Positions 48,601-61,000 of a DNA stretch of 64,000 nucleotides are shown piece by piece. This DNA comes from Ostreococcus lucimarinus (Eukaryota). The DNA is taken from assembly GCA_000092065.1 (NCBI GenBank), contig CP000582.1; one strand, 5' to 3'. The notes beneath the pieces were generated by a model. The model was not told where the DNA came from, did not search any database, and saw nothing but the letters and a program-made list of their open reading frames with translations. The translations under genes were made by a program, and so were the position numbers. How positions within the stretch are numbered: the first letter of the stretch is position 1; every line of letters starts with the position of its first letter.

Positions 48601-51600
48601 GCCGCATGCGCGCGCGCCGGTGCTCGCGCGACAAGGCATGCCGCGACCGGATGACGGCGCGTCTGAGGCTGGAGCAGCGGACGCTGCTCGAGCGCGCGTG
48701 CGGCGATCCGGCGTGAGCGGCTTCGCGTTCCAGGGCACAAACGCGCACGCAATCATGGCCCGGGGACCCGGACAGGCGACTGCGCCCGGGTACACGGGAA
48801 GCACGCACACGGCGGCGCGTGCGTGGGAGCGTCAGCGCCACTGGTGCGCGCCAGAACGGCACTGCCTCATCGAGTCCGTGCGCGCTCTGCATCCTCGCGA
48901 GGGAGACTCGAGCGCGTTGGCGCGGTCGTGCGTGCGCCTGTGTCGGTCCGCGTCGCTCGCTGGCATGCTTGATCACGCCGTCGGGCTCCGGACGCTGCTA
49001 CCAGGCACAGCGCACGTCGAGATATGTCGAGCCATGGCGGGCGCGCTGGCAGACCAGCCGCTCGCCGACATCTCGCTGTCGCACGTATCTTTTGCAGCGC
49101 CCCTCGAGCTTCGAGCGCCGACGACCGACGTGCTGTGCGACGTCACGCCGCAAGGCGTGGCCCGCGTGGGCGTGCGCGTGTCGTCGTCCTCTGCCGCCGC
49201 GCCGTTCCTCGCGGGCGCGCTCAGCCGCAGAAGCGCCTCAAGAATTACTGCGTCTCCGGCGCACCTCTCGCGAGGACCGGCGATGCCCGCGCTGGACGTG
49301 CAGCCTTGTGTTCACGGCGCGAGCTGGCTGCGCTCGTCGCAGCGACGAGGCCCGGGCGCGGAGCACCGCGTGTACGGCGACATACGCGCGCGTCAGATGT
49401 CCACGCTGTCGGCTGCGGCGTATCACTCGCCGCCCGCAGTGCTCGATGCCGCGCTGCACGCGCTCAGCGCGTGCGCGCCGCCGCCGGGTAGCGATGCGAC
49501 AGAAGAGAGCCCGCACGTCCCGGCCACGATCGGCGGCGTCCGCACGCGAGGCGGGCACTCGGACATATACCGCGCCCGGTTCGCGCTCGCGACGGCTCCG
49601 CCTGAGCGCGGGGAGCGGAACGCGTCCACGCGCAGATCTCGTCACCACCTGTGGGACTGGTCGAGTCTTTCGGCGGCGCATCGAGGGTGCGTGGTGCACG
49701 CGCTGGAGTCTCGACGACTCGGTGGCGCCGCGGTCGTGCGCTCGCGAGCACAACAGCGCTCGAGGGCACCGCCGCCGCGTCGCGCGGCCGCGCCGCGTGT
49801 GCTTTATGGAGTCGGGCAACAGCGCGCGTGCGGCGCGGCGGATGGCCAGGGCGCGCGTCGACGCTCAACCCTCAACTCGCAGTGCTTTGTGGACGACGCG
49901 TCGCACCGCCGCGAGCTGATGGAGACCCACGCGTCACCATCGATCGCGCAAGGCAGCACGCGAAGCAGCACGCGCGCCTCTCTTTGCGCGGTTGCGCTGC
50001 TGCAGGCTTGCGGCGCTCGTGCGCGCGTTTCCGGCGCCCACGTGCGTGCAAACGACATCGTCCACGAGGACGCTTCGGCCGCGCCCGCAGTCTGTGGATC
50101 GTGCGTGCGCGCCACCGTGCAGTCTTCCGCGCAGGAACGCAGCGAGCCATTGGTGCTGAGTGTCGCGAGCGCCCCGCACACCGCGCCAGCCCGAGCGTTG
50201 CGATCGATCGCCGCCGGGGCGTCGATCGCCGGGGCGCTGTGCGTTGAGCGTCTGCTTCCGACGTTCGGTCGCCGGACGCCCGCCGCGTCGCGCGACGGCG
50301 CGGCGACGACCACGGCGTCGCCGGCACCGAAAGTCTCGAGCGTGTTCGTGACTGGCGGTCTGGGCGCGTTGGGTCAGACTTCGGCGGCGTGGTACGCGCA
50401 TCGAGGCGTTCGCCACGCCTACTTGACTGGTCGCCGCGGGCGCGGAGAGTCCCTTCTGCTGCGATGGTCGTCGCGCGGCGGTACCGACGTGAGCGCATTG
50501 CACGTGCTTCGCGTCGACGCGTGTGCGACCGACGAGGCGTCGTACGGCGGTGCGCGCGCGCACGCGCGCGTGCGCGCACACGGCGTGCTGCACGCGGGCG
50601 GCGTGCTACGCGACTCTTTGACTGCTCGCCAATCCGCGTCGGCCCATCGATACGTGTGGTCGTCCAAAGTAGTGTCCGCGCACGCATTGCTCCGCCAGTG
50701 CGTCGGCGTCGAGCGCGGCGCGCGTCACATCGCGCTGTTCTCGTCGGTGGCGGCGCTGCTGGGGAGTCCAGGGCAATGCAACTACAGCGCGGCCAACGCC
50801 GCGCTGGACGCGCGAGCCGCACACGAGTGGTGCCGCGGGTACGCGGTGCAATCCGTGCAGTGGGGCGCGTGGGACGGCGCGGGAATGGCGCTGACAAACG
50901 CGTCTGTACTCAGGAACGCGCGCACGACAGGCATCGGCGTGCTCGATCCGCAAGCCGGGCTCGGGGCCGTACACGTCGCGCTTCAGGGCGCATCAGTGAC
51001 GGGTCGCTGGCGGGCAATCCAAGGCGTCCTGGCCGTCGTCCCGTTCCAGTGGTCCGTGCTCGCGCGCGCGCAGCGCTCGCGCGCGCTGATTGCGGAGTAC
51101 CGCGCGGAGTCGGCGCGGTCGAGCGCTCCAGTCGCCGTCCATCCGGGCGCCGAGGAAGACGCGGCGCGCGATGTGTCAGATGAGAGCGTGCGGCAGATCG
51201 TGGCCTCCGCCGTGACGCGCGCGCTCGGCAGAGACGTGTCGGTGGACGCGTCGCTCATGGAAGAGGGCCTAGACTCGCTCGCGGCGGTCGAGCTCGGAGG
51301 GGCGTTACAAAAGGAAACGGGCGTGAACATGCCGGCCACGCTGGCATTTGACTACCCGACGATCACCGCGATATCTGGGTACCTGAAGGGTGCGATGCTG
51401 GCGCGATCGCGTGCGCGCCAATCGAGCGGCGCGGCGTCCAGCGCCGCTCGCACGCGCGCCGCGAGCGGCGCGGTCGCGCATTCGCGACGTACAACCATTA
51501 CTCAGCTCCCTCGTCTACGTCTATCATACGTTCCGCATGAAGTCAGCCGACGAACGACTCTTGGCATTAGCGGTCAATATTCTCACGAGCTTAGACACTT

Positions 51601-54600
51601 TAGCTCTGCGGGACCTTCGACCAGTAACTTTGAGGGAGTCCTCTTTGTTCGCATTCATAACTCCACCAAGCCCTTACCCGTGCATCCATATTTCATTGGC
51701 AACTTTTTGCGTTGTGACGAACTCGAGTTCGGCTTGTTTGGCGCACCGCACAGCGAATGGACTACTCTGGACGCGCGGCAGATTCTCTTGATTGAGAGTG
51801 TACACACTATCCAGCTGAACAACAGTTCAGACGTTTCATTGCGCACTCTAGAGACGACGGCTGTTCTTGTTGGAGCACAAGCGGTAGATTCAACTGACGA
51901 GCATAGCGTTGAGATACAGTACAACGCCTACTCTGGCGTTGCTTCCGCCTTGAGCGTGCTGTGCGGTCGCGTATCGTACACGTTTGGTATGCGTGGCCCG
52001 TCCGTGTGTGTCGACACCGCGTGCTCCTCCTCGCTCGTGGCCGCGCATGTTGCGAGCTCTCACTTGCGCGATGGATCGTGCGAGGACGCCCTCGTCGCCG
52101 GCGTGAGCGTGAACGTCGGCATCGGCACCTTCCTCGTGGCCACCGCCGCGAGCATGCTATCGTTCGATGGTCGGTGCAAAACCTTGGATGCCAGCGCCGA
52201 CGGTTACGCCAAGGGCGAGTGCTGCGTGGTCCTGCGCGTGTCGGTGGACGGGGCGAGCGCTGGAGCGCCCAAAGCGCCCGATCTTCCAAACGCCGAGTCT
52301 CCCTCTCTCGCTCTTCTCGAACAGACCGGTGTGAACCAGGATGGACGGTCGAGCTCGCTCACCGCACCAAACGGGCCGTCGCAGCAGGCACTCGTGGCCG
52401 ATGCGCTTCTCCGCTCGGGGCTGCACGGCGACGCGCTCGGCAGGCTGGAGATGCACGGCACGGGTACTTCGCTGGGAGATCCGATAGAGGTCGGCGCCGC
52501 GCTTGAGGTTCTCGCGCCGCCGACGCGCGCGGACCGGGCGCCGTCCAGGGGCCCCGCGCTCACGCTTGAGGGCGTGAAGCCACGCGCTGGCCACTGCGAA
52601 CCAGGGGCTGGCGCGGTTGGGTTGCTGTTTGCGATGGCAAACTTGACGGAGCGAGCCGTCGCGTCCCTCGTCCACCTGCGCCAGCTCAACCCTCACGTCG
52701 AGGCCGCGACGCGCCGAAACGCACCGTCGCCGCATGCGCGCGCGCCGGTGCTCGCGCGACAAGGCATGCCGCGACCGGATGACGGCGCGTCTGAGGCTGG
52801 AGCAGCGGACGCTGCTCGAGCGCGCGTGCGGCGATCCGGCGTGAGCGGCTTCGCGTTCCAGGGCACAAACGCGCACGCAATCATGGCCCGGGGACCCGGA
52901 CAGGCGACTGCGCCCGGGTACACGGGAAGCACGCACACGGCGGCGCGTGCGTGGGAGCGTCAGCGCCACTGGTGCGCGCCAGAACGGCACTGCCTCATCG
53001 AGTCCGTGCGCGCTCTTCATCCTCGCGAGGGAGACTCGAGCGCGTTGGCGCGGTCGTGCGTGCGCCTGTGTCGGTCCGCGTCGCTCGCTGGCATGCTTGA
53101 TCACGCCATCGGGCTCCGGACGCTACTACCAGGCACAGCGCACGTCGAGATATGTCGAGCCATGGCGGGCGCGCTGGCAGACCAGCCGCTCGCCGACATC
53201 TCGCTGTCGCACGTATCTTTTGCAGCGCCCCTCGAGCTTCGAGCGCCGACGACCGACGTGCTGTGCGACGTCACGCCGCAAGGCGTGGCCCGCGTGGGCG
53301 TGCGCGTGTCGTCGTCCTCTGCCGCCGCGCCGTTCCTCGCGGGCGCGCTCAGCCGCAGAAGCGCCTCAAGAATTACTGCGTCTCCGGCGCACCTCTCGCG
53401 AGGACCGGCGATGCCCGCGCTGGACGTGCAGCCTTGTGTTCACGGCGCCATCAGACGGAGCGTGCGACGACTCGACGCGGATGATCGAGAGCCAAAGCCT
53501 GCTCGACATGGCGGCTCGGCGTTGTTTTCATCGTTCGTGAGGTGCGTCATGGCAGAGCGAGCCTCTGAAGATCGCTTCGACACGCCATCGTTGGGCAGGC
53601 AGCCGAGCGCGACAGCGCGCGTGGTCTCCTTGACGAAAGCCAGAGATTTCACTACACAAGCTCTCGACAGCATGCCGAAATGCAACGAGATTGAGCTGAG
53701 CGTCGTCAGCGCTGTGTCGAGTAAGGCATCAGGCGCGCACGATGCTGTGCGTGTGAACAACATGCGACATGCGTGCGGCGAAGTGTGTGATCCACAAAGC
53801 TCAAAATCGCACGAGTTCGTCGCTCGGCATCTTGTGCAGTTTGGGTACTTCATCGAGCGCAGCTTGTTTGACGGGGAGCAGTTCTCCGTAACGGCGCACG
53901 AGGCGCGGTTGATGGACCCGCAGCAGCGCGTGCTCCTGGAGAACGCGCTCGCCGCGACGAGCGCGACGCCGCACAGCGCGCCGAAGCCAGCCACAGCCGT
54001 GTCCGTCGGCGCTTGGACGTCTCAGTACGCAGACATGTGCCGCGTGTACGAGCCAACGCCGGGGCCGTACTCTGGCGTTGCTTCCGCCTTGAGCGTGCTG
54101 TGCGGTCGCGTATCGTACACGTTTGGTATGCGTGGCCCGTCCGTGTGTGTCGACACCGCGTGCTCCTCCTCGCTCGTGGCCGCGCATGTTGCGAGCTCTC
54201 ACTTGCGCGATGGATCGTGCGAGGACGCCCTCGTCGCCGGCGTGAGCGTGAACGTCGGCATCGGCACCTTCCTCGTGGCCACCGCCGCGAGCATGCTATC
54301 GTTCGATGGTCGGTGCAAAACCTTGGATGCCAGCGCCGACGGTTACGCCAAGGGCGAGTGCTGCGTGGTCCTGCGCGTGTCGGTGGACGGGGCGAGCGCT
54401 GGAGCGCCCAAAGCGCCCGATCTTCCAAACGCCGAGTCTCCCTCTCTCGCTCTTCTCGAACAGACCGGTGTGAACCAGGATGGACGGTCGAGCTCGCTCA
54501 CCGCACCAAACGGGCCGTCGCAGCAGGCACTCGTGGCCGATGCGCTTCTCCGCTCGGGGCTGCACGGCGACGCGCTCGGCAGGCTGGAGATGCACGGCAC

Positions 54601-56623
54601 AGGTACTTCGCTGGGAGATCCGATAGAGGTCGGCGCCGCGCTTGAGGTTCTCGCGCCGCCGACGCGCGCGGACCGGGCGCCGTCCAGGCCCCCCGCGCTC
54701 ACGCTTGAGGGCGTGAAGCCACGCGCTGGCCACTGCGAACCAGGGGCTGGCGCGGTTGGGTTGCTGTTTGCGATGGCAAACTTGACGGAGCGAGCCGTCG
54801 CGTCCCTCGTCCACCTGCGCCAGCTCAACCCTCACGTCGAGGCCGCGACGCGCCGAAACGCACCGTCGCCGCATGCGCGCGCGCCGGTGCTCGCGCGACA
54901 AGGCATGCCGCGACCGGATGACGGCGCGTCTGAGGCTGGAGCAGCGGACGCTGCTCGAGCGCGCGTGCGGCGATCCGGCGTGAGCGGCTTCGCGTTCCAG
55001 GGCACAAACGCGCACGCAATCATGGCCCGGGGACCCGGACAGGCGACTGCGCCCGGGTACACGGGAAGCACGCACACGGCGGCGCGTGCGTGGGAGCGTC
55101 AGCGCCACTGGTGCGCGCCAGAACGGCACTGCCTCATCGAGTCCGTGCGCGCTCTTCATCCTCGCGAGGGAGACTCGAGCGCGTTGGCGCGGTCGTGCGT
55201 GCGCCTGTGTCGGTCCGCGTCGCTCGCTGGCATGCTTGATCACGCCATCGGGCTCCGGACGCTACTACCAGGCACAGCGCACGTCGAGATATGTCGAGCC
55301 ATGGCGGGCGCGCTGGCAGACCAGCCGCTCGCCGACATCTCGCTGTCGCACGTATCTTTTGCAGCGCCCCTCGAGCTTCGAGCGCCGACGACCGACGTGC
55401 TGTGCGACGTCACGCCGCAAGGCGTGGCCCGCGTGGGCGTGCGCGTGTCGTCGTCCTCTGCCGCCGCGCCGTTCCTCGCGGGCGCGCTCAGCCGCAGAAG
55501 CGCCTCAAGAATTACTGCGTCTCCGGCGCACCTCTCGCGAGGACCGGCGATGCCCGCGCTGGACGTGCAGCCTTGTGTTCACGGCGCGAGCTGGCTGCGC
55601 TCGTCGCAGCGACGAGGCCCGGGCGCGGAGCACCGCGTGTACGGCGACATACGCGCGCGTCAGATGTCCACGCTGTCGGCTGCGGCGTATCACTCGCCGC
55701 CCGCAGTGCTCGATGCCGCGCTGCACGCGCTCAGCGCGTGCGCGCCGCCGCCGGGTAGCGATGCGACAGAAGAGAGCCCGCACGTCCCGGCCACGATCGG
55801 CGGCGTCCGCACGCGAGGCGGGCACTCGGACATGTACCGCGCCCGGTTCGCGCTCGCGACGGCTCCGCCTGAGCGCGGGGAGCGGAACGCGTCCACGCGC
55901 AGATCTCGTCACCACCTGTGGGACTGGTCGAGTCTTTCGGCGGCGCATCGAGGGTGCGTGGTGCACGCGCTGGAGTCTCGACGACTCGGTGGCCTCACGA
56001 CGAATTCATTTTATCATAGCTTTACGTCTACGCAGGCATATAAGTTGGCTCATATTCCACGGCCAGACATCCTATCGCAGTCTTTCACTTCAATGAAGAC
56101 TATAAATGCTGTCGACAAAGCTAGCAGCACATTTACAGAACGCAGTAGTGATGCGATGGAAATTGTTAACGCCGTGCAACGCGAGATTTTGGAAATTTTA
56201 TCAACATTAACGACCAGTCCTGTAAGTTTAGATGATACACTTGCGAGCCACGGATTGGACTCACTGGGCATTGCATATTTTTTTATTCAAGTTGGCAAAC
56301 GGTTCAATGTTGAAGTGACTGTTGACAGTCTTGGCACGAACACCACAGTCAGTAGTATAGTGCATCAGATATCACAGATGCTTAGTGCAAGGGTGATTTT
56401 CCTACACACCAAGGACCTGGTGCGCGAGCGAAAAGCCGACAGCTCCTCAAGAAGAGGAAGGAGCACTGCGATCACATCGATGGTGTCTGCATACCGTCGA
56501 CACTTGCAGTCAACTGAATTCGAGCCCAAAGCCTGTTTTGCAAGAGGCGTACTTGCTTGCGCAATATTTACTATATTTATCATTGCGTACGGATATCACG
56601 CACACAGATTCGACATGTTTTAG
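42647..56623 (+). CDS. Giant modular type I polyketide synthase, apparently AT-less: (N-term unknown)-KS-DH-KR-ACP-KS-DH-KR-ACP-KS-DH(truncated)-KS-DH-ACP-TM helix; 4658 aa, single ORF
   Basis: 4x KS (DTACSSSL Cys, HGTGT, G-H). 4x DH-like (LLDHRVADMHLMP / MLDHA[VI]GLRTLLP, plus NPCIQDASLQ / AVLDAALHA). 2x KR (VFVTGGLGALGQ ... GQCNYSAANAALDA). 3x ACP (EEGLDSLAAVEL x2, SHGLDSLGIAYF). I could find no GHSxG/AFHS acyltransferase signature, and the KS-to-DH linkers are only ~28 aa. The first in-frame Met is 42647; a later Met start is possible. Confidence 0.9.
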   Translation: MTYDIVLQRFTPTSQGPTTPYPCAIKANSKWKLVRLKRLALERFRCPMLTRHKPESVQNGTPRNESRMSNLDTRAMSNPYFQVGRWDCTDELEGCQFSAPHTSVSVPNFEEIQTLHYTCVYEVAITCTQRHDMHNDEFAHVLSSVIELANRVDLTRLRQHHSIDNFATHVLTFRFILDLLRQTYQEYIKGSIENNSFEHVEFTFNNCMDGTHGMATCFKPNKKHSHLCYILDISQAERSCNGRTDDTKCVHDKITMNDRVLSAAKIPDNAVNKQFSASILNDVYGFDSSLFHISQSETLCMDPQQRLLLLAAADLYLSNTRVCQHDDSFCVHVGVSWNDFEEIRRKYSADFFSTYDSTGTSISVASGRIAYYFDFKGCAVTIDTACSSSLVALHQSMYAAGSLRESSALVCGINLILTTTMTHRFQLAGMMSSEHRCMTFDARADGYVRSEACNIVLLHFNGFTKTHRNVLRHDVHMSCVVNQDGTSTGLTAPNGTAQRNLMNELLSDVYNPSKHVGAKIHAHGTGTPLGDPIEVFAINSALSFSSLCRLYVSEKSMRGHTEPASGLCSTILAFVSGAQCKLHGQPHLQQLNNHILTSVDESIFQRSLHSSFPLTSMASVTTVSSFAFQGTNAMASLTYIDKCSIRVIRNTSGLRSLVKLETESPVRLPYTFSCLSIVNGKMIQLTSMIHDKTLKRLLDHRVADMHLMPATGHLELERELTKCALVRNEPYLLTKIAFMLPLKLDESNQLITEMNTHGRLRVGCGSGISNYWCSTARLQIPVGRAWCTDRTFYLTSKLVSRRFKGATATIAGTTPILDSQNVVNPCIQDASLQCSAYVLNTSAFASDTTYMDCVSLLKLPTTIQDVIVVNQTGKILVRSTHVDMLQKTQHVTESNNSVTSNSSSNNKTQTWIHRLLCKVSTVRMKAGLRTRTCLELARLLYHARQQRVLISNMQNLREVGSLHAPELMPIMREMGRKSMQDINSASASLCAVALLQACGARARVSGAHVRANDIVHEDASAAPAVCGSCVRATVQSSAQERSEPLVLSVASAPHTAPARALRSIAAGASIAGALCVERLLPAFGRRTPAASRDGAATTTASPAPKVSSVFVTGGLGALGQTSAAWYAHRGVRHAYLTGRRGRGESLLLRWSSRGGTDVSALHVLRVDACATDEASYGGARAHARVRAHGVLHAGGVLRDSLTARQSASAHRYVWSSKVVSAHALLRQCVGVERGARHIALFSSVAALLGSPGQCNYSAANAALDARAAHEWCRGYAVQSVQWGAWDGAGMALTNASVLRNARTTGIGVLDPQAGLGAVHVALQGASVTGRWRAIQGVLAVVPFQWSVLARAQRSRALIAEYRAESARSSAPVAVHPGAEEDAARDVSDESVRQIVASAVTRALGRDVSVDASLMEEGLDSLAAVELGGALQKETGVNMPATLAFDYPTITAISGYLKGAMLARSRARQSSGAASSAARTRAASGAVAHSRDSMPGIASNAREILGLAPVVMAIRRSVRRLDADDREPKPARHGGSALFSSFVRCVMAERASEDRFDTPSLGRQPSATARVVSLTKARDFTTQALDSMPKCNEIELSVVSAVSSKASGAHDAVRVNNMRHACGEVCDPQSSKSHEFVARRLVQFGYFIERSLFDGEQFSVTAHEARLMDPQQRVLLENALAATSATPHSAPKPATAVSVGAWTSQYADMCRVYEPTPGPYSGVASALSVLCGRVSYTFGMRGPSVCVDTACSSSLVAAHVASSHLRDGSCEDALVAGVSVNVGIGTFLVATAASMLSFDGRCKTLDASADGYAKGECCVVLRVSVDGASAGAPKAPDLPNAESPSLALLEQTGVNQDGRSSSLTAPNGPSQQALVADALLRSGLHGDALGRLEMHGTGTSLGDPIEVGAALEVLAPPTRADRAPSRGPALTLEGVKPRAGHCEPGAGAVGLLFAMANLTERAVASLVHLRQLNPHVEAATRRNAPSPHARAPVLARQGMPRPDDGASEAGAADAARARVRRSGVSGFAFQGTNAHAIMARGPGQATAPGYTGSTHTAARAWERQRHWCAPERHCLIESVRALHPREGDSSALARSCVRLCRSASLAGMLDHAVGLRTLLPGTAHVEICRAMAGALADQPLADISLSHVSFAAPLELRAPTTDVLCDVTPQGVARVGVRVSSSSAAAPFLAGALSRRSASRITASPAHLSRGPAMPALDVQPCVHGASWLRSSQRRGPGAEHRVYGDIRARQMSTLSAAAYHSPPAVLDAALHALSACAPPPGSDATEESPHVPATIGGVRTRGGHSDIYRARFALATAPPERGERNASTRRSRHHLWDWSSLSAAHRGCVVHALESRRLGGAAVVRSRAQQRSRAPPPRRAAAPRVLYGVGQQRACGAADGQGARRRSTLNSQCFVDDASHRRELMETHASPSIAQGSTRSSTRASLCAVALLQACGARARVSGAHVRANDIVHEDASAAPAVCGSCVRATVQSSAQERSEPLVLSVASAPHTAPARALRSIAAGASIAGALCVERLLPTFGRRTPAASRDGAATTTASPAPKVSSVFVTGGLGALGQTSAAWYAHRGVRHAYLTGRRGRGESLLLRWSSRGGTDVSALHVLRVDACATDEASYGGARAHARVRAHGVLHAGGVLRDSLTARQSASAHRYVWSSKVVSAHALLRQCVGVERGARHIALFSSVAALLGSPGQCNYSAANAALDARAAHEWCRGYAVQSVQWGAWDGAGMALTNASVLRNARTTGIGVLDPQAGLGAVHVALQGASVTGRWRAIQGVLAVVPFQWSVLARAQRSRALIAEYRAESARSSAPVAVHPGAEEDAARDVSDESVRQIVASAVTRALGRDVSVDASLMEEGLDSLAAVELGGALQKETGVNMPATLAFDYPTITAISGYLKGAMLARSRARQSSGAASSAARTRAASGAVAHSRRTTITQLPRLRLSYVPHEVSRRTTLGISGQYSHELRHFSSAGPSTSNFEGVLFVRIHNSTKPLPVHPYFIGNFLRCDELEFGLFGAPHSEWTTLDARQILLIESVHTIQLNNSSDVSLRTLETTAVLVGAQAVDSTDEHSVEIQYNAYSGVASALSVLCGRVSYTFGMRGPSVCVDTACSSSLVAAHVASSHLRDGSCEDALVAGVSVNVGIGTFLVATAASMLSFDGRCKTLDASADGYAKGECCVVLRVSVDGASAGAPKAPDLPNAESPSLALLEQTGVNQDGRSSSLTAPNGPSQQALVADALLRSGLHGDALGRLEMHGTGTSLGDPIEVGAALEVLAPPTRADRAPSRGPALTLEGVKPRAGHCEPGAGAVGLLFAMANLTERAVASLVHLRQLNPHVEAATRRNAPSPHARAPVLARQGMPRPDDGASEAGAADAARARVRRSGVSGFAFQGTNAHAIMARGPGQATAPGYTGSTHTAARAWERQRHWCAPERHCLIESVRALHPREGDSSALARSCVRLCRSASLAGMLDHAIGLRTLLPGTAHVEICRAMAGALADQPLADISLSHVSFAAPLELRAPTTDVLCDVTPQGVARVGVRVSSSSAAAPFLAGALSRRSASRITASPAHLSRGPAMPALDVQPCVHGAIRRSVRRLDADDREPKPARHGGSALFSSFVRCVMAERASEDRFDTPSLGRQPSATARVVSLTKARDFTTQALDSMPKCNEIELSVVSAVSSKASGAHDAVRVNNMRHACGEVCDPQSSKSHEFVARHLVQFGYFIERSLFDGEQFSVTAHEARLMDPQQRVLLENALAATSATPHSAPKPATAVSVGAWTSQYADMCRVYEPTPGPYSGVASALSVLCGRVSYTFGMRGPSVCVDTACSSSLVAAHVASSHLRDGSCEDALVAGVSVNVGIGTFLVATAASMLSFDGRCKTLDASADGYAKGECCVVLRVSVDGASAGAPKAPDLPNAESPSLALLEQTGVNQDGRSSSLTAPNGPSQQALVADALLRSGLHGDALGRLEMHGTGTSLGDPIEVGAALEVLAPPTRADRAPSRPPALTLEGVKPRAGHCEPGAGAVGLLFAMANLTERAVASLVHLRQLNPHVEAATRRNAPSPHARAPVLARQGMPRPDDGASEAGAADAARARVRRSGVSGFAFQGTNAHAIMARGPGQATAPGYTGSTHTAARAWERQRHWCAPERHCLIESVRALHPREGDSSALARSCVRLCRSASLAGMLDHAIGLRTLLPGTAHVEICRAMAGALADQPLADISLSHVSFAAPLELRAPTTDVLCDVTPQGVARVGVRVSSSSAAAPFLAGALSRRSASRITASPAHLSRGPAMPALDVQPCVHGASWLRSSQRRGPGAEHRVYGDIRARQMSTLSAAAYHSPPAVLDAALHALSACAPPPGSDATEESPHVPATIGGVRTRGGHSDMYRARFALATAPPERGERNASTRRSRHHLWDWSSLSAAHRGCVVHALESRRLGGLTTNSFYHSFTSTQAYKLAHIPRPDILSQSFTSMKTINAVDKASSTFTERSSDAMEIVNAVQREILEILSTLTTSPVSLDDTLASHGLDSLGIAYFFIQVGKRFNVEVTVDSLGTNTTVSSIVHQISQMLSARVIFLHTKDLVRERKADSSSRRGRSTAITSMVSAYRRHLQSTEFEPKACFARGVLACAIFTIFIIAYGYHAHRFDMF
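43480..44560 (+). other. PKS KS1 domain (AT-moderate composition)
   Basis: FDSSLFHISQSETLCMDPQQRLLL; TIDTACSSSLVALHQS (Cys codon near 43801); HAHGTGTPLGDPIE; SMRGHTEPASG; SSFAFQGTNAMASL. Confidence 0.85.
44600..45290 (+). other. PKS DH1 domain (AT-moderate composition)
   Basis: LLDHRVADMHLMPATGHLE (the HxxxGxxxxP variant with D) and NPCIQDASLQ (the DxxxQ motif). Confidence 0.65.
45960..46560 (+). other. PKS KR1 catalytic subdomain (GC-rich, repeat A copy 1)
   Basis: VFVTGGLGALGQTSAAWYAHRG; FSSVAALLGSPGQCNYSAANAALDA. Confidence 0.8.
46817..47013 (+). other. PKS ACP1
   Basis: VRQIVASAVTRALG..SLMEEGLDSLAAVELGGALQ..LAFDYPTITAISGYL. Confidence 0.85.
47560..48757 (+). other. PKS KS2 (GC-rich, repeat B copy 1)
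   Basis: FDGEQFSVTAHEARLMDPQQRVLLE; VCVDTACSSSLVAAHVA; EMHGTGTSLGDPIE; PRAGHCEPGAG; SGFAFQGTNAHAIM. Confidence 0.85.
48840..49726 (+). other. PKS DH2 (complete)
   Basis: MLDHAVGLRTLLPGTAHVE and YHSPPAVLDAALHALS. Confidence 0.65.
49976..51486 (+). repeat. PKS intragenic repeat A, copy 2
   Basis: See copy 1. Confidence 0.92.
50331..51384 (+). other. PKS KR2 + ACP2 (repeat A copy 2, offset +4371 from KR1/ACP1)
   Basis: Translation is identical to KR1/ACP1 except for LLPAFG->LLPTFG upstream. Confidence 0.85.
51684..52885 (+). other. PKS KS3, chimeric: divergent AT-moderate N-terminal part (to 51928) fused in-frame to GC-rich repeat B from 51929
   Basis: HPYFIGNFLRCDELEFGLFGAPHSEWTTLDARQILLIESV aligns with FGYFIERSLFDGEQFSVTAHEARLMDPQQRVLLENA of KS2/KS4. 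From Y|SGVASALS onward the sequence is identical to KS2/KS4. Confidence 0.8.
51929..53448 (+). repeat. PKS intragenic repeat B, partial copy 2 (1520 bp, from mid-KS to mid-DH)
   Basis: See copy 1. Both ends fall inside domains. Confidence 0.92.
52968..53448 (+). other. PKS DH3, truncated after the first half at the repeat junction (lacks the LDAALH half)
   Basis: MLDHAIGLRTLLP is present. At ..QPCVHGA|IRRSVRRLD the sequence jumps directly into the inter-module linker of repeat B copy 3. Confidence 0.7.
53447..55993 (+). repeat. PKS intragenic repeat B, copy 3
   Basis: See copy 1. It abuts partial copy 2 with a 2-bp microhomology (gc). Confidence 0.92.
53827..55993 (+). other. PKS KS4 + DH4 (repeat B copy 3, offset +6267 from KS2/DH2)
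   Basis: The motifs are the same as in KS2/DH2. Substitutions seen: ARRLVQ->ARHLVQ, SRGPAL->SRPPAL, DHAVG->DHAIG, HSDIY->HSDMY. Confidence 0.85.
56154..56385 (+). other. PKS terminal ACP3 (AT-moderate composition)
   Basis: AMEIVNAVQREILEIL..LDDTLASHGLDSLGIAYFFIQVGKRF..IVHQISQML. Confidence 0.8.
56531..56600 (+). other. C-terminal hydrophobic helix of the PKS (putative membrane anchor)
   Basis: ACFARGVLACAIFTIFIIAYGY is followed by HAHRFDMF and the stop. No thioesterase or reductase release domain is present. Confidence 0.5.
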
Positions 56624-56726
56624 TTACCAACGTCACGGCGGTAGGCTCATTGCCCTTGTAATTCAACTCCGTTCTCAAAAAGTTGTCTGTTAAGTACTTT
56701 GAGCACTGTTCAGCTCTCACCGCTGA

Positions 56727-56795
56727 CTCCCGACAGGAGTTAGCTAAAACTCCTGACAGGAGTTAGCTAAAACTCCTGACAGGAGTTAGCGAAAG
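56727..56795 (+). repeat. 3 x 23-bp tandem repeat, each unit = 13-bp palindrome CTCCTGaCAGGAG + 8-bp palindrome TTAGCTAA + AA
   Basis: Direct reading: ctcccgacaggagttagctaaaa / ctcctgacaggagttagctaaaa / ctcctgacaggagttagcgaaag. The array ends 3 nt before the ATG at 56799. Confidence 0.9.
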
Positions 56796-56798
56796 GTG

Positions 56799-57677
56799 AT
56801 GCCGAGGCGCACATCATTAGCCAACGGCAGCTCGCTGTACGACGGGTTGCGATTTAAGTCGAGCGGGTTCAAGCGTTCGGGCAGGAAAGTGAACTTTTAC
56901 ACGTGTAGTACGATCGACGACTCGGACAGAAACGCGTCCTCGACGGGGAGATGCACGTTCGAGGCGGAGATCCGGCACAGAGCCGCGACGGACGAGTACT
57001 TCATCACCAAGTACGTCGGCCATTCGTTCGGTTGCACCGCGCTCTCGCCCCACATCGACGGGGAAACGCGAGCCGAGCTCGTCGATGACGTGCAAATGCA
57101 AGCCATATCCCTGCAACGAGGTCGCGTCGCTGTACAATCGTGTATCGATTACGTGTTCCGGCGCTACTCGTACGTCGTCGACGAAGCGCCGGCTGCGTCG
57201 TTACTTCAGTGCGTGCGGCGACGAAGTTCGGTGGCCACTCGCAGAGAGGCTCTTAAGCGCTTCGCTCAGACGAAAGTGCGATCGAAATTACAGGGCGAAC
57301 TCATGACCTGCATCGCGCACTCGCGCCAAGTCATAACCTCGTTGAGCCTGACCGAACGCCCGACGTCACGCGACATTCGAAAGTATTATCATGTGTTCGG
57401 ATTGCTGCACACGCACTGCAGTCGTCTTCCGGAGTTCGACTCGCTCGCAACCGTATGGATGGCCGCAGATACGACTAGCAGCGCCGCGCTCATTCATGCG
57501 CTCGAGCTCGGCATCAAAAAATTCGACAACGCACTGCGCACCGTTCGCCCCGCGACTGCCTCACAAACTGAAGCCTTGCACAACGCTCACGGCCATCTTC
57601 CTCCTTACGATCTCAGTGAAGCCGAGGCGTTGACGGCTCTTCGTAGTATAGCGCGTTCTGCCCAAACACGTTCGTAG
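56799..57677 (+). CDS. GC-rich intronless orphan protein with N-terminal WRKY/FLYWCH/FAR1-like zinc-finger signature (possibly transposon-derived)
   Basis: YDGLRFKSSGFKRSGRKVNFYTCS...GRCTFEAEIRH...YFITKYVGHSFGC fits the beta-strand C..C...H.(H/C) pattern of WRKY-GCM1 superfamily DNA-binding domains. The rest of the protein has no recognisable family. An imperfect hairpin lies at 57690-57714, just after the stop. Confidence 0.4.
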   Translation: MPRRTSLANGSSLYDGLRFKSSGFKRSGRKVNFYTCSTIDDSDRNASSTGRCTFEAEIRHRAATDEYFITKYVGHSFGCTALSPHIDGETRAELVDDVQMQAISLQRGRVAVQSCIDYVFRRYSYVVDEAPAASLLQCVRRRSSVATRREALKRFAQTKVRSKLQGELMTCIAHSRQVITSLSLTERPTSRDIRKYYHVFGLLHTHCSRLPEFDSLATVWMAADTTSSAALIHALELGIKKFDNALRTVRPATASQTEALHNAHGHLPPYDLSEAEALTALRSIARSAQTRS

Positions 57678-58074
57678 CGAAGCTTCTTTGTTAAAGATGT
57701 CAAACATCGTTAACTATGTCATCTTTCCATAGTTTAAACCTCGTTTGCCTTTTTCACCATCAAGCGAAGCGAACCTATTGGATTTCACAACCCTCGTTGA
57801 CGTGTCACTTGAGGTCCAGCTCAGCTCGCCGTCATCGTCAGGACGCGGAAGAATCACACTGCGTTGCGCGCTGACCGGACTTCAAGAGCAAGAACAAAAT
57901 TGGTCGCTAATCCACAGCCAGTGCAACGATAGCAGTACAGTTCCTCTCTTCCGACAGCTCTGGTGTGTTTCCCAGCTCATGCCTGGCTCAGAGCCGCCGC
58001 CCACCATGGACCGGACGGACATAGCCACGTCTAGAAAACTCAGCCCGGAAGGCACGAGTCAAGGCGACCGTGAA

Positions 58075-61000
58075 ATGATGAGCTGGAGCCTTGCTTACGC
58101 GAGCAGGATACTACATACTCGAAAAAAATCGAAAGGGAAGCGCAAGTTCACATTTCAAGTGCGTGCTTTTATTACTTCATATTTTTTTCCTTAAATGTGC
58201 CGACAGCCAGTTGCCGACCAGCTTACAGCGATCAATATCGCCCCGTATCCTGACAGTGCGTTTGATCTCAATGTGCGACAACAGGCATTCGGTACTTGTC
58301 TACAACACGCCTTGCTTCACTGGCAGGAATTATGTTGCTCAAACGACTTCAACAGTTTCGCAGCAAAGGCTTCTATCAGGTGCCTCAGTCTACCTCAGCT
58401 CATTTTACACAAAAAGGAAGTAATGGGAGCTCTTTTGAATGGCATTAGATCAGGAAAATGCTATTCTCTTGAAGCGCTCTTTCATTGTCTCGTTGCCATA
58501 GCGAAAGATCTTGGTGCTAGCTTTGTCACATATTTTCCACTTTCAGTTGAGGCAATCACTTGCTGTCTGGAAGGAACTATGGAATTGGACGCGAACCACG
58601 TGGAGTCGGCGTTTCGGTGCCTCGCTACGCTCTGCACATTACTATGGCGGTCAGGCAAAGTTACAATGCTGCATATTTTAGAGTGTACGCGGCATATTAG
58701 AAACCATCCAAAGCAACATGTGCGCAAACTAGCAGCCCAAGCGGTTGCTCCGGCTGTACGAAGTTCGACTAATGAAATCATCTTAGCTAGTGTCAGAAAT
58801 CTCATCATGGAACACTCTATACTGTGTGAGTCAAGTCAGCAGGAACACAGGATAGAAGCAACGACATTCATGTTACACTACATTGCTGTTGGTCATGCGA
58901 GCGCGCTTCACTCAAAGTCGGACAGCGTGCTGAGAGCAGTTTTCGATCCAGACTTCGTACCTGAGGTACGGGGAACTGTCCGTCTAGTCATAGTTCAGAA
59001 CTTACTTGTTTCACTTGATGCATCTCTACCCAAGAGCGCCTTCAAAGAACTATGGAATTCATTTTTACATGTTATCAGTTCTTGTGCTGCTCAAGTGGGT
59101 AACAAGAACATATCAGAAGTCATGTACTTATCTGAGATAGCTATATCCATATGTTCTACAAGGTTCGAATTGTGTACAGATAGCTACAATAAGCTTTCTG
59201 ATTTCGTACACGCTTACTTCTTGTTTTGTACAACCAGTGCAAAACCAGTTGAGCAATCAAGTGTCACTACTTTTGTGCGGCTGCTGGCGGCACTTTCTTC
59301 ACGTAACGAGTTCAAAGCAATGCCAGTGTTAACATCTTTTCCTTGGTGTGATCTGATACGGACTATTGACAACTCTTCGATTACGCTGATACTAAGGGTG
59401 CTGATACAAAACATTGAACTGGGATGCGTCACAGCTCATTACATGAGTGAAGCCTTACTGATAGATTCGTCGCACTTGATTTTTCTTAGAGGATTCGAAA
59501 ACTCTTTAATGTTGGGCAAGATTATTCAAAAGGTGGCAGAATTTTCGAAGGATTTACACTCGAAGTTGATGCGAATCGACGATGCACTCTTGAAGTGGCA
59601 CTTCGAGTGTAAGCTGACATCGCTTGATTTTAGTGAAATATGGTCAACTCTCCAAATTTTACCGTATTTTGCCGACACTCGACTGGTGCAGAGCGTCATT
59701 ACTACCATGGTCTCATATGTCAAGCGTTCAAAAGAGGCAAGTGTGGATCAAAATGCCCTTTCCAGTGGTGCATCGGCTCTTCTCATGTCTTCACTTGAAG
59801 CTGATATACTTTGTCGAGAACTTGATACATCTTCAAATTGCAAGTTCTCGTTTGAACTTATTCGTTTCACTCTCTCATGTCGTATTTCTTCGCCGGCTGT
59901 GTGGTCTTCGTTAGCACGTCTAACTTCTTTGATTATACGGCGAGCCGATGAAATACCAGCCGAACTTATGCCAAGTGATCTGACAGAATGCATACGATCC
60001 CAAAATCGTCTTTTAAGGGTTTCTGTTCTTGAGTATTTAGCGATTATTGCAAACAATCATATGGGCATGTCACCCAAGTCGACTGAGTGTGTTACAGCCT
60101 TTTTGTATATGAACAGGTTGTCTCGTGATAGTGGAAGTATACTCGAATATTCCAGGAAGAGTATCAATTTGATCAGATCCTTGACTCGGAAACTCAGCGA
60201 CTTTGATGCCTCTGATCACGTTGCGGTGTTGAATATGGCTCTGGGAGCGTTGTATCTTCGTTTCAATCCACTATGGGATCCACTTGTAGAACTGATTGGT
60301 GTCTTGAGTGGATCCGATTCTACAGCGCTTCAGTTATTACAGGCAGAAATCCTTCGAACCAAGCAGGAAGTAATTGCTGACCACGATGTCCAAGAAACGA
60401 TTATTTTGTTCCCCACCGACAGCGATCAGACACGTGATGAAGTTTGTGAAGCTCTCAATCCTCAAGAGCGGAGTGTAGAACAGTCTCAACGTTTACAGCT
60501 GTTGATTACGTCTCTGCAGTACTGCACACTTATGGACCAAACTTTTGTACTTGATCTCTTTTTGGATGTTTATTCAGTCTGCCGTAGAAATGAATATAGA
60601 TATGTTGCTACACGGTATTCAGGCATAATTTTAGCTCTCTTAAAGCTTATGCAGAGTAAAGATGAGGTTCGTTCTCTCCTTCTTCGGACAAAATTAGATG
60701 CGCATCAGTTATACGAAGGCGTTTTCACAGCTTTGAAAGCTTTAGTGGGTGATGACAACGCGAACTTGGCATCAGAAGCGCTGAAGTGTATGGGCCTTTT
60801 GAAGTTAGATTATCTCCCTAATATTAGAGTTTCGCAACTATGCTTGCTGACGGATGTTCAGTCAGTGAAGCGCGCGTTAACTTCAATACAATTCGAAGAA
60901 GGTTCAGAGGATTCTGAAGTTTCACATGAGTTTCCTAAGATCCAAGAACGGCACCGGGAGGATGTCATCAGTATCATAGTAAGCATCCTGTCAAAATATA

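What the first reader, a model, noticed from the sequence alone, without database searches (positions are those of the whole stretch)
56796..57677. Intronless GC-rich orphan with WRKY/FLYWCH/FAR1-like finger wedged between the PKS and UTP20
Seen: an 879-nt ORF whose composition matches the GC-rich islands rather than its neighbours. The N-terminal pattern (..GFKRSGRKVNFYTCS..GRCTFEAEIRH..YFITKYVGHSFGC) resembles the WRKY-GCM1 superfamily fingers found in MULE/FAR1-type transposases and FLYWCH proteins. The remaining ~200 aa have no family I recognise, and no transposase catalytic domain is evident. Inference: this is a solo or domesticated transposon DNA-binding gene, or the remnant of an element. 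Its position immediately 3' of the PKS raises the possibility that it arrived with, or regulates, the GC-rich PKS sequence. That last idea is speculative.
Basis: inference. Interest (0 to 1): 0.45.

Follow-up and report, generated by a model that had tools for sequence, protein, structure and literature searches.

The report
Beheaded Helitron passenger-gene relic
The small, GC-richer gene between the polyketide synthase and UTP20 of Ostreococcus lucimarinus is most likely a 5'-truncated, immobile leftover of the second gene of a rolling-circle (Helitron) transposon; it encodes a zinc-finger-like protein of an undescribed family and shows no link to the synthase.

Summary
The ORF is real (ATG 56799 to stop 57677, 292 aa). 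It is exactly O. lucimarinus CCE9901 XP_001416178.1 / OSTLU_119562, a hypothetical protein in the low-GC candidate mating-type region of chromosome 2.

Its GC is 58%. Flanks are 44-47% and the PKS core is 68.5%, so it matches the genome average, not the PKS islands.

The C-X15-C-X22-H-X3-C pattern is present, and all four candidate ligands are kept in a 36%-identical homologue. No formal test places it in WRKY, FAR1 or FLYWCH. Pfam gave nothing, hhalign gave P=0.012 against WRKY and 0.34 against FAR1, and fold searches found only generic helical bundles.

Only window 56833-57780 is shared with the full-length 326-aa gene found elsewhere. The window copy lacks the first 45 codons.

In an O. mediterraneus-like genome the homologue lies 35 bp after a 2566-aa Helitron RepHel ORF in 9 contigs. 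About 100 bp after the stop, the two lineages share a terminal 15-mer (...GCGAAGCGAAnCTAG|T).

In the O. lucimarinus lineage no RepHel and no TIRs were found. Nonsense, frameshift and fusion alleles are common, and dN/dS is about 1 between its two loci.

Verdict: a Helitron ORF2 relic. The transposon-remnant idea is right in spirit, the MULE/FAR1 idea is unproven, and the PKS link is unsupported.

The parts
56799..57677 (+). Open reading frame, 292 aa plus stop. It is the annotated hypothetical protein OSTLU_119562 / XP_001416178.1.
   Evidence: ORF listing and sequence. Exact match to the NCBI protein. The identical protein lies in the same PKS-UTP20 context in 13 metagenome contigs.
56799..56832 (+). 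New 5' end of the ORF: the ATG and the first 11 codons (MPRRTSLANGS). This stretch is not homologous to the full-length gene.
   Evidence: Nucleotide homology to the full-length copy (L004) begins at 56833. tblastn of the 326-aa form matches only its residues 46-326.
56833..57780 (+). Helitron-derived unit: a 5'-truncated ORF2 plus a 103-bp 3' tail. It is shared at 98.8% identity with a second locus.
   Evidence: blastn of the window against L004 matches 56833-57780, 948 bp, 98.84%. L001, L002 and L004 all lose homology to the window at 57780. No TIR or TSD sits at the two ends.
56835..57044 (+). Candidate zinc-chelating beta module (residues ~13-82) with ligands C36, C52, H75 and C79. It is WRKY-GCM1-like by pattern only.
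   Evidence: The four residues are conserved in P0033, which is 36% identical and reads C-X10-C-X22-H-X3-C. AF2 on the full-length form predicts a helix followed by three strands at pLDDT ~40-80. hhalign against WRKY is in register but weak, P=0.012.
57060..57665 (+). All-helical C-terminal region (residues ~88-289) containing a four-helix-bundle-like core.
57678..57780 (+). 3' tail of the unit. It ends in the conserved terminal 15-mer GCGAAGCGAACCTAT (57764-57778). The other locus reads ...CCTAG followed by T.
   Evidence: The terminal 15-mer matches 14/15 the end of the tail of the O. mediterraneus-like Helitron copy L019 (...GCGAAGCGAAACTAG|T), although coding dS exceeds 2. It is the only match with at most 1 mismatch in the window. 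No convincing hairpin is present.
56726..56794 (.). Flanking 23-bp x 3 tandem repeat, each unit holding the palindrome CTCCTGaCAGGAG, directly 5' of the start codon. It lies outside the Helitron-derived unit and its role is unknown.
   Evidence: TRF score 124. Two copies in L014/L015 and three in the other contigs. Absent elsewhere in the window and at the second locus.

Best explanation
Window 56833-57780 is a 5'-truncated, non-autonomous remnant of the 3' part of a prasinophyte Helitron. It carries most of that element's second gene (ORF2) and the 3' tail.

The intact element was seen in an O. mediterraneus-like genome.
- A ~2570-aa RepHel protein (HUH-type Rep plus Pif1 helicase) would carry out rolling-circle transposition.
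- ORF2 follows 35 bp downstream on the same strand.
- About 100 bp after ORF2 comes a terminus of the form ...GCGAAGCGAAnCTAG, followed by T.

Full-length ORF2 is 326-335 aa and has three parts.
- A conserved N-terminal stretch with a helix.
- A Cys2-His-Cys beta module whose spacing fits the transposon-type WRKY-GCM1 fingers.
- A ~200-aa helical region built around a four-helix-bundle-like core.

Inferred function: the finger binds DNA and the helical part mediates self-association or partner binding. Plausible DNA targets are the element's own ends or its promoter. This would make ORF2 an accessory factor of the element.

The window copy lacks several things needed for mobility and probably for function.
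- It has lost RepHel, the 5' end of the element and the first 45 codons of ORF2, including the helix.
- It starts at a fortuitous ATG in unrelated DNA.
- Its terminal CTAG reads CTAT, and it has no stable subterminal hairpin.

It therefore cannot move on its own and is probably a neutrally drifting relic that happens to remain open.

Shown: the truncation, the unit boundaries, the Helitron linkage of the homologue, the shared terminal motif, the defective alleles and the lack of a PKS link. Inferred: DNA binding, the accessory role and the loss of function.
For: Identity and rarity
- The ORF equals OSTLU_119562.
- Only three 90%-identity clusters turned up among 5.8 billion proteins.
- Only 6 hits turned up among 1.84 billion representatives read in full by HMMER.

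Truncation
- The full-length form P0005 (326 aa; L004-L007, contigs of 160-187 kb) aligns to the window only from its residue 46.
- Nucleotide homology covers 56833-57780 at 98.84%.
- The missing N-terminus is conserved in P0033, which is 36% identical over the full length.

Helitron linkage
- P0033-type genes lie 35 bp downstream of a 2566-2587-aa ORF with Helitron_like_N and PIF1 domains in L010 and L019-L026.
- RepHel and ORF2 occur together with at least two different 3' flanks.
- Four of these contigs are 9.3-9.4 kb long and stop at the same base, as expected for a repeat.
- The same 1031-bp ORF2 unit, 100% identical, also sits without RepHel next to REV3. There it starts 29 bp before the ATG.
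- Host flanks cluster at 90% or more with O. mediterraneus proteins.

Shared terminus
- The L004 tail ends ...CAAGCGAAGCGAACCTAG followed by T. The window tail differs only in the last base (T for G) and is also followed by T.
- The L019 tail ends ...TTCGCGAAGCGAAACTAG|T at the same distance from the stop.
- The last 15 nt match 14/15 although coding dS is 2.3.

Other 5'-truncated copies with intact 3' parts
- P0047, L008/L009 and L011/P0032.

No other element type
- No TIRs or TSDs, no Pfam domain and no viral relatives.

Decay
- The window differs from L004 by 2 synonymous and 7 non-synonymous changes, dN/dS 1.14.
- Locus-2 alleles carry AGA->TGA at codon 95 of the full-length form in 10 contigs.
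- Others carry frameshifts (P0054, P0018), a copia-Gag::ORF2 fusion (L001) and an out-of-frame indel (L003).

GC
- The ORF's 58% GC equals the genome norm inside a 44-47% region. This fits a recent arrival or continued gene conversion (PMC8557840).
Against: - No RepHel was found next to any O. lucimarinus-type copy, in the window or in 11 loci from the metagenome scan. The Helitron link for this lineage is therefore indirect, resting on 36% protein identity plus the terminal motif.
- The canonical subterminal hairpin is absent in the window and L004 tails: -2.2 kcal/mol, z about 0. It is only weak in L019 (z -2).
- The window ends CTAT, not CTRR.
- At the one empty site available (L044 against L019), homology resumes 12 nt after CTAG and the preceding base is G, not A. 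The exact terminus and the AT target are therefore not established.
- Only two loci exist in the O. lucimarinus population. All four flank combinations occur in contigs, so the sharp boundaries could partly reflect ectopic recombination or chimeric assembly.
- Deep dN/dS of 0.2-0.6, an ORF that is intact and invariant in 13 wild contigs, and an MMETSP transcript fragment of a near-identical copy (P0023) leave room for a function.
Confidence: 0.62

Rival explanations
1. Host gene captured by a Helitron. On this view ORF2 is an Ostreococcus host gene resident in the low-GC mating-type region. The O. mediterraneus-lineage Helitron picked it up, and the two O. lucimarinus copies are a host gene and its partial duplicate, kept similar by gene conversion.
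For: - No RepHel was found in the O. lucimarinus lineage.
- Both O. lucimarinus copies lie in 45%-GC DNA typical of the chromosome 2 mating-type region.
- Gene conversion between MT haplotypes is reported in O. tauri (PMC8557840).
- Helitrons are known to capture genes (PMC5148889, PMC4289320).
- Deep dN/dS is 0.2-0.6.
Against: - The duplicated unit ends exactly at a motif shared with the Helitron tail (14/15 nt, ending CTAG|T), about 100 bp past the stop in both lineages. A captured gene would not be expected to bring the element's terminus back to the host copies.
- Null alleles are common at the supposed parental locus.
- 5'-truncated copies with intact 3' ends recur in three lineages.
Confidence: 0.17
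2. Domesticated solo WRKY/FAR1-type DNA-binding gene. This is the first reader's reading: a functional transcription factor derived from a MULE-type transposase, possibly regulating the adjacent PKS.
For: - The four ligands are conserved, with the 22-residue Cys-to-His spacing typical of WRKY-GCM1 (PMC1702500).
- hhalign against WRKY is in register at P=0.012.
- A helix is predicted before the first strand in the full-length form.
- The ORF is intact in every contig whose ORF flanks match the window on both sides.
Against: - No MULE, SWIM or FAR1 signal was found: Pfam gave nothing and hhalign against FAR1 gave P=0.34.
- No TIRs.
- The window copy lacks the conserved first 45 residues, including that helix.
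- dN/dS is about 1 between the two loci.
- The same unit occurs without any PKS nearby.
- The family is linked to a Helitron, not a MULE.
Confidence: 0.15
3. Chance ORF. On this view it is a non-coding open frame that stays open only because the DNA is GC-rich.
For: Long spurious ORFs of 315-336 aa occur on other frames of the GC-rich PKS core. There is no Pfam match.
Against: - Homologues at 71%, ~50% and 36% identity keep the frame over 214-335 aa.
- dN/dS is 0.2-0.6.
- The AF2 model is confident for the helical half, pLDDT 70-95.
Confidence: 0.03

Closest known systems
Non-RepHel ORFs carried by autonomous Helitrons: RPA-like genes of plant Helitrons, and the extra domain-less ORF of Fusarium FoHeli3 (PMC5148889)
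   Same: It is a second protein-coding gene inside the element, separate from RepHel. It is found only in association with the element, and truncated or non-autonomous copies are scattered in the genome.
   Different: - The protein has no similarity to RPA, OTU or AP endonuclease (no Pfam match).
- It combines a Cys2-His-Cys beta module with a helical bundle.
- It lies directly downstream of RepHel on the same strand.
- I found no description of such an ORF2. Ostreococcus appears in the held Helitron literature only as a count of 38 structure-predicted Helitrons (PMC6591975).
Transposon-associated WRKY-GCM1 fingers: the 'insert-containing' (FAR1-type) and HxC families of MULE transposases (Babu et al. 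2006, PMC1702500)
   Same: - There is a long insert between the two N-terminal Cys, and 22 residues between the second Cys and the His.
- The second dyad is mixed His/Cys.
- An aromatic residue (F) sits at the position of the WRKY Trp.
[quoted passage not shown]
- The domain is linked to a mobile element.
   Different: - The dyad is H-X3-C, not HxH or HxC.
- No significant sequence, profile or fold match was obtained.
- The associated element is a Helitron, not a MULE.
- There is no transposase or SWIM domain on the same polypeptide.
Classical WRKY domain (for example AtWRKY4-C, PDB 1WJ2). Three single-domain WRKY proteins are reported in O. tauri (PMC1702500).
   Same: The best, though weak, profile match is to WRKY: 62 aligned columns, 32% identity, both Cys in register, and a shared 'RAATD' turn.
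   Different: - There is no WRKYGQK motif.
- The Cys-Cys spacing is 10-15 residues, not 4-7.
- Pfam WRKY is not matched.
- Shuffle tests give p=0.01-0.04 for the O. lucimarinus form but p=0.25-0.67 for the O. mediterraneus-like form.
5'-truncated or fragmentary Helitron copies and Helitron 3'-end variants (canonical features as summarised in PMC6591975)
   Same: The 3' end is shared while the 5' start points vary. The terminus ends in CTAG followed by T (L004, L019). There are no TIRs or TSDs. A variant in L020-L026 has a mutated internal terminus and an extended tail.
   Different: The GC-rich hairpin expected 10-15 nt from the end is missing or very weak. The window copy ends CTAT. The 5'-TC end and the AT target could not be checked.

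Membership tests
WRKY-GCM1 superfamily (WRKY, FAR1/insert-containing, HxC, FLYWCH, GCM1) | Four metal ligands arranged as a Cys dyad and a His/Cys dyad, with about 22-23 residues between the second Cys and the first His | tested here: met
   The window protein reads C36-X15-C52-X22-H75-X3-C79. P0033 reads C-X10-C-X22-H-X3-C. All four residues are conserved at 36% overall identity.
WRKY-GCM1 superfamily (WRKY, FAR1/insert-containing, HxC, FLYWCH, GCM1) | Statistically significant sequence or profile similarity to a member family | tested here: not met
   - Pfam gave 0 families at E<=10 for the window protein, P0005 and P0033.
- phmmer and hmmsearch against PDB sequences found no WRKY or GCM chain.
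- hhalign against 10 FAR1 domains gave P=0.34.
- hhalign against 5 WRKY domains gave P=0.012, probability 3.5%. The FAR1-against-WRKY control gave 53%.
WRKY-GCM1 superfamily (WRKY, FAR1/insert-containing, HxC, FLYWCH, GCM1) | Four-stranded antiparallel sheet that superposes on WRKY4 or GCM1 | tested here: inconclusive
   - AF2 of P0005 predicts E66-70, E88-95 and E100-108 plus short bridges, at pLDDT ~40-80.
- The window-protein model has pLDDT below 50 there.
- The domain could not be searched on its own.
Transposon-type WRKY-GCM1 (FAR1/MULE) | [quoted passage not shown] | tested here: inconclusive
   A helix is predicted in the full-length form (H35-48 of P0005, pLDDT ~70-80). That segment is missing from the window copy, where homology starts at P0005 residue 46.
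Transposon-type WRKY-GCM1 (FAR1/MULE) | Linked MULE transposase core and SWIM finger, or TIR-bounded element | tested here: not met
   No Pfam domains. No inverted repeats at the unit ends. Flanks at both loci hold no MULE.
Helitron (canonical, Helitron1-type) | RepHel protein (Rep/HUH plus Pif1-like helicase) | tested here: not met
   The window and all O. lucimarinus-type loci gave no tblastn hit to the L019 RepHel. In the related element the feature is present: 2566-2587 aa with Helitron_like_N and PIF1 domains, directly upstream of the homologue in 9 contigs.
Helitron (canonical, Helitron1-type) | 3' terminus CTRR (mostly CTAG) abutting a host T | tested here: inconclusive
   - L004 reads ...AACCTAG|T and L019 reads ...AAACTAG|T.
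- The window reads ...AACCTAT|T, one base off.
- At the L019 empty site, homology resumes 12 nt after CTAG.
Helitron (canonical, Helitron1-type) | GC-rich hairpin about 10-15 nt upstream of the 3' end | tested here: not met
   Window and L004: -2.2 kcal/mol, z 0.05 to 0.39. L019: a 5-bp stem, -4.0 kcal/mol, z -2.0. L011: a 7-bp stem, -11.2 kcal/mol, z -2.5.
Helitron (canonical, Helitron1-type) | 5'-TC terminus and insertion into AT without target duplication | not testable with these tools
   The window copy is 5'-truncated. No contig reaches a verified 5' junction of the intact element. No TSD is present at the unit ends.
Helitron (canonical, Helitron1-type) | The same unit with identical ends in unrelated genomic contexts | tested here: met
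   - O. lucimarinus type: the PKS/UTP20 locus and the KDELR...PTPA locus.
- O. mediterraneus-like type: after RepHel with two different 3' flanks, and next to REV3 without RepHel, 100% identical over 1031 bp.
Domesticated transposon-derived host gene | Fixed syntenic position across species, intact frame and purifying selection | tested here: not met
   - The position differs between and within lineages.
- dN/dS is 1.14 between the two O. lucimarinus loci and 0.2-0.6 in deeper comparisons.
- Nonsense, frameshift and fusion alleles are present.

The most novel reading that the evidence does not exclude
ORF2 may be a true, previously undescribed Helitron-encoded accessory protein whose N-terminal module is a divergent WRKY-GCM1 finger. 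That would be the first link between this finger class and rolling-circle elements; until now it has been known from MULE transposases and their domesticated derivatives.

The two 98.8%-identical O. lucimarinus copies would then lie in the opposite, otherwise unalignable MT- (window) and MT+ (locus 2) haplotypes of the chromosome 2 mating-type region. They would record recent transposition or gene conversion between haplotypes that meet only in a zygote.
Probability: 0.22. Interest if true: 0.6.

Novelty: new variant of a known kind. Interest (0 to 1): 0.35.

Why it matters
For genome annotation, OSTLU_119562 should be flagged as a transposon-derived fragment. It should not be treated as a candidate regulator of the neighbouring PKS or as a mating-type-locus gene.

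More broadly, the work uncovers a small Ostreococcus-restricted protein family that travels with a Helitron as its second gene. It has no recognisable domain, but it carries a conserved Cys2-His-Cys module resembling transposon-type WRKY-GCM1 fingers.

If that resemblance is confirmed, the finger class would extend from MULEs to rolling-circle elements, and there would be a candidate end-binding or regulatory factor for Helitron transposition. Known accessory proteins of Helitrons are limited to RPA-like, OTU and endonuclease proteins.

The near-identical copies in what look like the two mating-type haplotypes could serve as a marker of recent genetic exchange in an alga whose sexual cycle has never been observed.

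Tried and rejected
- Pfam scans of the window protein, the full-length form and two distant homologues found no family at E<=10.
- phmmer and a family HMM against all PDB sequences gave only chance hits or none.
- AF2 on the window protein with 7 sequences gave an N-terminus at pLDDT below 50.
- The afdb50 library was unavailable.
- hhalign against a FAR1 alignment built from database proteins found no similarity.
- hhalign in global mode gave a meaningless end-to-end match and was discarded.
- The 'type B' relatives (P0002, P0018) at first looked like a paralogue with a different N-terminus. They proved to be a copia-Gag::ORF2 fusion created by a ~1.9-kb deletion.
- TIR and TSD search at the unit ends found nothing.
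- RepHel search in the window and all O. lucimarinus-type loci found nothing.
- Viral origin: two IMG/VR scans found nothing.
- Literature search for the locus tag found no paper.
- The supplement of PMC8557840 is not held, so the gametolog lists could not be checked.
- The idea that the ORF shares its origin with the GC-rich PKS core was rejected on composition (58% against 68.5%), on the low-GC spacer and on the PKS-free second locus.
Full report
1. What is at the coordinates

The window holds one uninterrupted ORF on the + strand. The bacterial-code listing starts it at GTG 56796. The first ATG is at 56799 and the stop ends at 57677, which gives 292 aa. This exact protein is XP_001416178.1 / ABO94471.1, 'hypothetical protein OSTLU_119562' of Ostreococcus lucimarinus CCE9901, on an 895,087-bp record.

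The window as a whole is ~45% GC. That is the signature of the low-GC part of chromosome 2, which the literature treats as the candidate mating-type (MT) region. CCE9901 is the MT- reference (PMC8557840, PMC7016971).

Upstream, the 4658-aa ORF is a modular type I PKS with 4 KS plus KR, ACP and DH domains. Downstream is a 2432-aa UTP20.

The ORF is 58.1% GC (GC3 68%). The PKS tail is 44.2%, the two intergenic stretches are 47.4% and 51.7%, UTP20 is 43.7% and the PKS core is 68.5%. So the ORF is compositionally foreign to its surroundings. It matches the genome norm of ~0.60 (PMC8557840), not the PKS islands.

2. The protein family

Pfam finds nothing. A word-indexed search of 5.8 billion proteins finds three clusters. 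A full HMMER pass over 1.84 billion representatives finds six proteins, all family members or fragments. No viral relatives exist in IMG/VR or BFVD.

The informative relatives are these.
- P0005, 326 aa, on 160-187-kb metagenome contigs.
- P0003, 71% identical.
- P0032, about 50% identical, C-terminal part only.
- P0033 and its cluster, 334-335 aa, 36% identical over the whole length.

3. The window copy is beheaded

P0005 and P0033 share about 45 N-terminal residues that the window protein lacks (...TPRDNRRYRGAGPI.S..R...I.DGPYDS...AV.ALR..AL).

Nucleotide homology between the window and the P0005 locus (L004) runs only from 56833 to 57780, 948 bp at 98.84%. tblastn of P0005 matches the window only from its residue 46. 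The ATG and the first 11 codons of OSTLU_119562 come from unrelated DNA that directly follows a 23-bp x 3 tandem repeat.

On the 3' side, L001, L002 and L004 all lose homology with the window at 57780, 103 bp past the stop. No inverted repeats or target duplications mark the two ends.

4. Where the unit occurs

In O. lucimarinus-type DNA (99-100% identical to the window in shared flanks) there are two loci.
- PKS-ORF-UTP20: the window, L014-L018 and L052-L057.
- 'Locus 2': KDEL receptor, Pyr_redox, ORF, PTPA, TAF4, ELO, TIMELESS, cyclin and RPE65 (L004-L007 and L033-L038). It is also 45% GC.

Locus 2 carries the full-length form, preceded in some alleles by a copia-like fragment. That fragment has a Gag with a CCHC knuckle and a gag_pre-integrase match at E=0.002.

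The apparent 'paralogue with another N-terminus' (P0002, P0018; L001) is an in-frame fusion of that Gag to the ORF's C-terminal 200 codons, produced by a ~1.9-kb deletion.

Contigs with all four flank combinations exist (L013, L002, L041). These are either chimeric assemblies across the 948-bp repeat or true ectopic recombinants. I cannot tell which.

5. The Helitron link

The P0033-type gene lies 35 bp downstream of, and on the same strand as, a 2566-2587-aa ORF with Helitron_like_N and PIF1 domains. This holds in L010 and L019-L026, which come from at least eight samples.

RepHel and the gene occur together with two different downstream sequences. One leads into host genes (thioredoxin and others; L019). 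The other is shared by L020-L026. Four of the contigs are 9.3-9.4 kb long and end at the same base, as assemblies do at repeat borders.

The same 1031 bp, 100% identical and beginning 29 bp before the ATG, also lies next to REV3 without RepHel. All three contigs that carry it (L008 and L009 next to REV3, L010 after RepHel) end at or within about 50 bp of the gene's stop. A further copy (P0047) starts about 10 codons in. P0032 (L011) starts after the finger.

Host flanks cluster at 90% or more with O. mediterraneus proteins. Contigs L044-L051 give an empty site for L019.

The gene is therefore the second ORF of a multicopy autonomous Helitron in that lineage. 5'-truncated copies that keep the 3' part are common.

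6. A shared 3' terminus

About 100 bp after the stop, the tails read as follows.
- L004: ...TTTTTCACCATCAAGCGAAGCGAACCTAG, followed by T.
- Window: the same, with the last base T instead of G, also followed by T.
- L019 (Helitron copy): ...CTTCTTCACACTTCGCGAAGCGAAACTAG, followed by T.

The last 15 nt match 14/15, although synonymous sites between the two genes are saturated (dS 2.3) and the rest of the tails barely align. In the window the motif occurs with at most 1 mismatch only there.

CTAG followed by T is the canonical Helitron 3' end (PMC6591975). The L020-L026 variant keeps a degraded internal copy of the motif without CTAG and runs ~220 bp further to ...CTATCTAG|T, which looks like 3'-end bypass.

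There are caveats.
- The expected GC-rich hairpin is absent in the window and L004 tails (z about 0). It is weak in L019 (5-bp stem, z -2.0) and clear only in L011.
- At the L019 empty site, homology resumes 12 nt after CTAG, after a G rather than an A.
- No RepHel was found near any O. lucimarinus-type copy, nor in the window.

7. Signs of decay

The window and L004 copies differ at 9 coding positions, 2 synonymous and 7 non-synonymous, dN/dS 1.14. Locus-2 alleles up to 4% divergent show synonymous to non-synonymous ratios of about 1:2.

Defective alleles are widespread.
- AGA->TGA inside the finger, in 10 contigs.
- A frameshift after 'EAEIR' (P0054).
- A frameshifted C-terminus (P0018).
- The Gag fusion (L001).
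- An indel in L003 that puts the N-terminus and the rest in different frames.

Deeper comparisons give dN/dS of 0.22-0.61, so the family has been under some constraint, as expected for a gene useful to its element.

An MMETSP transcript fragment (P0023) shows that a near-identical copy is transcribed in a cultured strain. I have no expression data for the window copy.

8. The fold question

In the window protein the candidate ligands are C36, C52, H75 and C79 (C-X15-C-X22-H-X3-C). P0033 has C-X10-C-X22-H-X3-C. The H of 'IRH' is not conserved.

Several features fit the transposon-associated WRKY-GCM1 families described in PMC1702500.
- The 22-residue spacing between the second Cys and the His.
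- The long insert between the two Cys.
- The His/Cys dyad.
- A conserved Phe where WRKY has its Trp.
- A helix predicted just before the first strand (AF2 on P0005: H35-48, then E66-70, E88-95 and E100-108; pLDDT 40-80).

The formal tests do not confirm membership.
- Pfam: nothing.
- phmmer and the family HMM against PDB sequences: nothing relevant.
- Foldseek against PDB: no hit below E=0.28.
- hhalign against ten FAR1 domains taken from the database: P=0.34.
- hhalign against five WRKY domains from PDB chains: P=0.012, probability 3.5%. The alignment covers 62 columns in register, with both Cys aligned and the His off by one. The FAR1-against-WRKY control gave 53%.
- Shuffle tests of Smith-Waterman scores: p=0.01-0.04 for the O. 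lucimarinus form and 0.25-0.67 for P0033.

I rate WRKY-GCM1 membership as plausible, about even odds, but unproven.

The C-terminal ~200 residues are confidently helical (pLDDT 70-95). Their only structural neighbours are generic four-helix bundles such as FAT, HPt and designed proteins, which says little about function.

9. Most likely mechanism

In the intact element, RepHel performs rolling-circle transposition. This follows from established knowledge of Helitrons (PMC5148889, PMC6591975). ORF2 is an element-encoded accessory protein.

I infer that its zinc module binds DNA and that the helical half mediates association with itself or with a partner. Plausible DNA targets are the element's own terminal or promoter sequences. 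None of this was tested.

The window copy has no RepHel, no 5' end, a point-mutated terminus, no hairpin and a truncated protein. It is best read as an immobile relic whose frame is still open.

Its higher GC fits either a recent arrival from normal-GC DNA or continuing conversion with the locus-2 copy.

10. Rivals

- ORF2 is a host gene of the MT region that a Helitron captured. This fits the absence of RepHel in the O. lucimarinus lineage. It does not fit the terminal motif shared at the unit boundary, or the many null alleles.
- A domesticated WRKY/FAR1-type regulator. The truncation, dN/dS of about 1, the missing MULE features and the PKS-free second locus argue against it.
- A chance ORF. 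Conservation excludes this.

11. Novelty and verdict

The feature itself is ordinary: a transposon fragment annotated as a hypothetical protein.

The unfamiliar part is the family. It is a Helitron ORF2 with no known domain and a WRKY-GCM1-like ligand pattern, restricted to Ostreococcus-type sequences. I found no description of it.

I file it as a new variant of a known kind, with moderate interest. Confidence in the Helitron-relic reading is 0.62.

Noticed in passing
window 42647-56623 (core 45605-55993): The PKS ORF has a low-GC head and tail (44-45%) and a 68.5% GC core. The core is built of internally duplicated module blocks that are 99.5-99.9% identical to one another. This is an odd composition for a gene inside the low-GC mating-type region. 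Concerted evolution or GC-biased conversion among the repeats is one possibility.
   Followed up: partly
window 56726-56794: A 23-bp x 3 tandem repeat lies between the PKS stop and the ORF start. Each unit carries the palindrome CTCCTGaCAGGAG. Copy number varies in wild contigs, with 2 in L014/L015 and 3 elsewhere. It occurs nowhere else in the window or at locus 2. Its function is unknown.
   Followed up: partly
window 32497-33911 (+) and 34371-34841 (-); L004 3973-5390 and 18005-18805: The window carries diverged homologues of two 'locus 2' genes: Pyr_redox at 66% aa identity and cyclin at 49%. Locus-2 genes cluster at 90% or more with MMETSP transcripts, and none of the named cluster members listed is a CCE9901 protein. 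Locus 2 may therefore be the MT+ haplotype of the region whose MT- form is this window. The 948-bp unit would then be 98.8% identical between otherwise unalignable haplotypes (PMC8557840).
   Followed up: partly
L013, L002, L041 against the window and L004: Metagenome contigs show all four combinations of left and right flanks around the 948-bp unit. L013 and L002 read PKS-ORF-PTPA, and L041 reads locus2-ORF-UTP20. The coding sequences are mosaic (P0015). This is either chimeric assembly across the repeat or real ectopic or inter-haplotype recombination.
   Followed up: partly
L004 7521-9830: A copia-like retroelement fragment sits immediately upstream of the full-length gene, flanked by 92-bp direct repeats. 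It holds a 387-aa Gag with a CCHC knuckle and a 189-aa ORF with a weak gag_pre-integrase match. It is absent in allele L027. A ~1.9-kb deletion fuses its Gag in frame to the ORF's C-terminal part in L001.
   Followed up: yes
L020-L026, 3' of the ORF2 stop: One variant of the O. mediterraneus-like Helitron keeps an internal, CTAG-less vestige of the terminal motif (CCATCAAGGCGAGCGGCGCC). It then extends ~220 bp to ...CTATCTAG|T. This is consistent with 3'-end bypass and acquisition of a new terminus.
   Followed up: no
L010 1-552; L019 1-387: The region upstream of the RepHel ORF contains a twice-repeated ~45-bp block (GCGCACGTGGGAGAG..TTTTAAAATAGT..AGTCACTCCA). It may be a promoter or a 5' subterminal repeat of the element.
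   Followed up: no
window 57745-58194: The 414-bp spacer between the unit's end and UTP20 is 51.7% GC and holds a 149-aa ORF with no assigned identity. It is not shared with locus 2.
   Followed up: no
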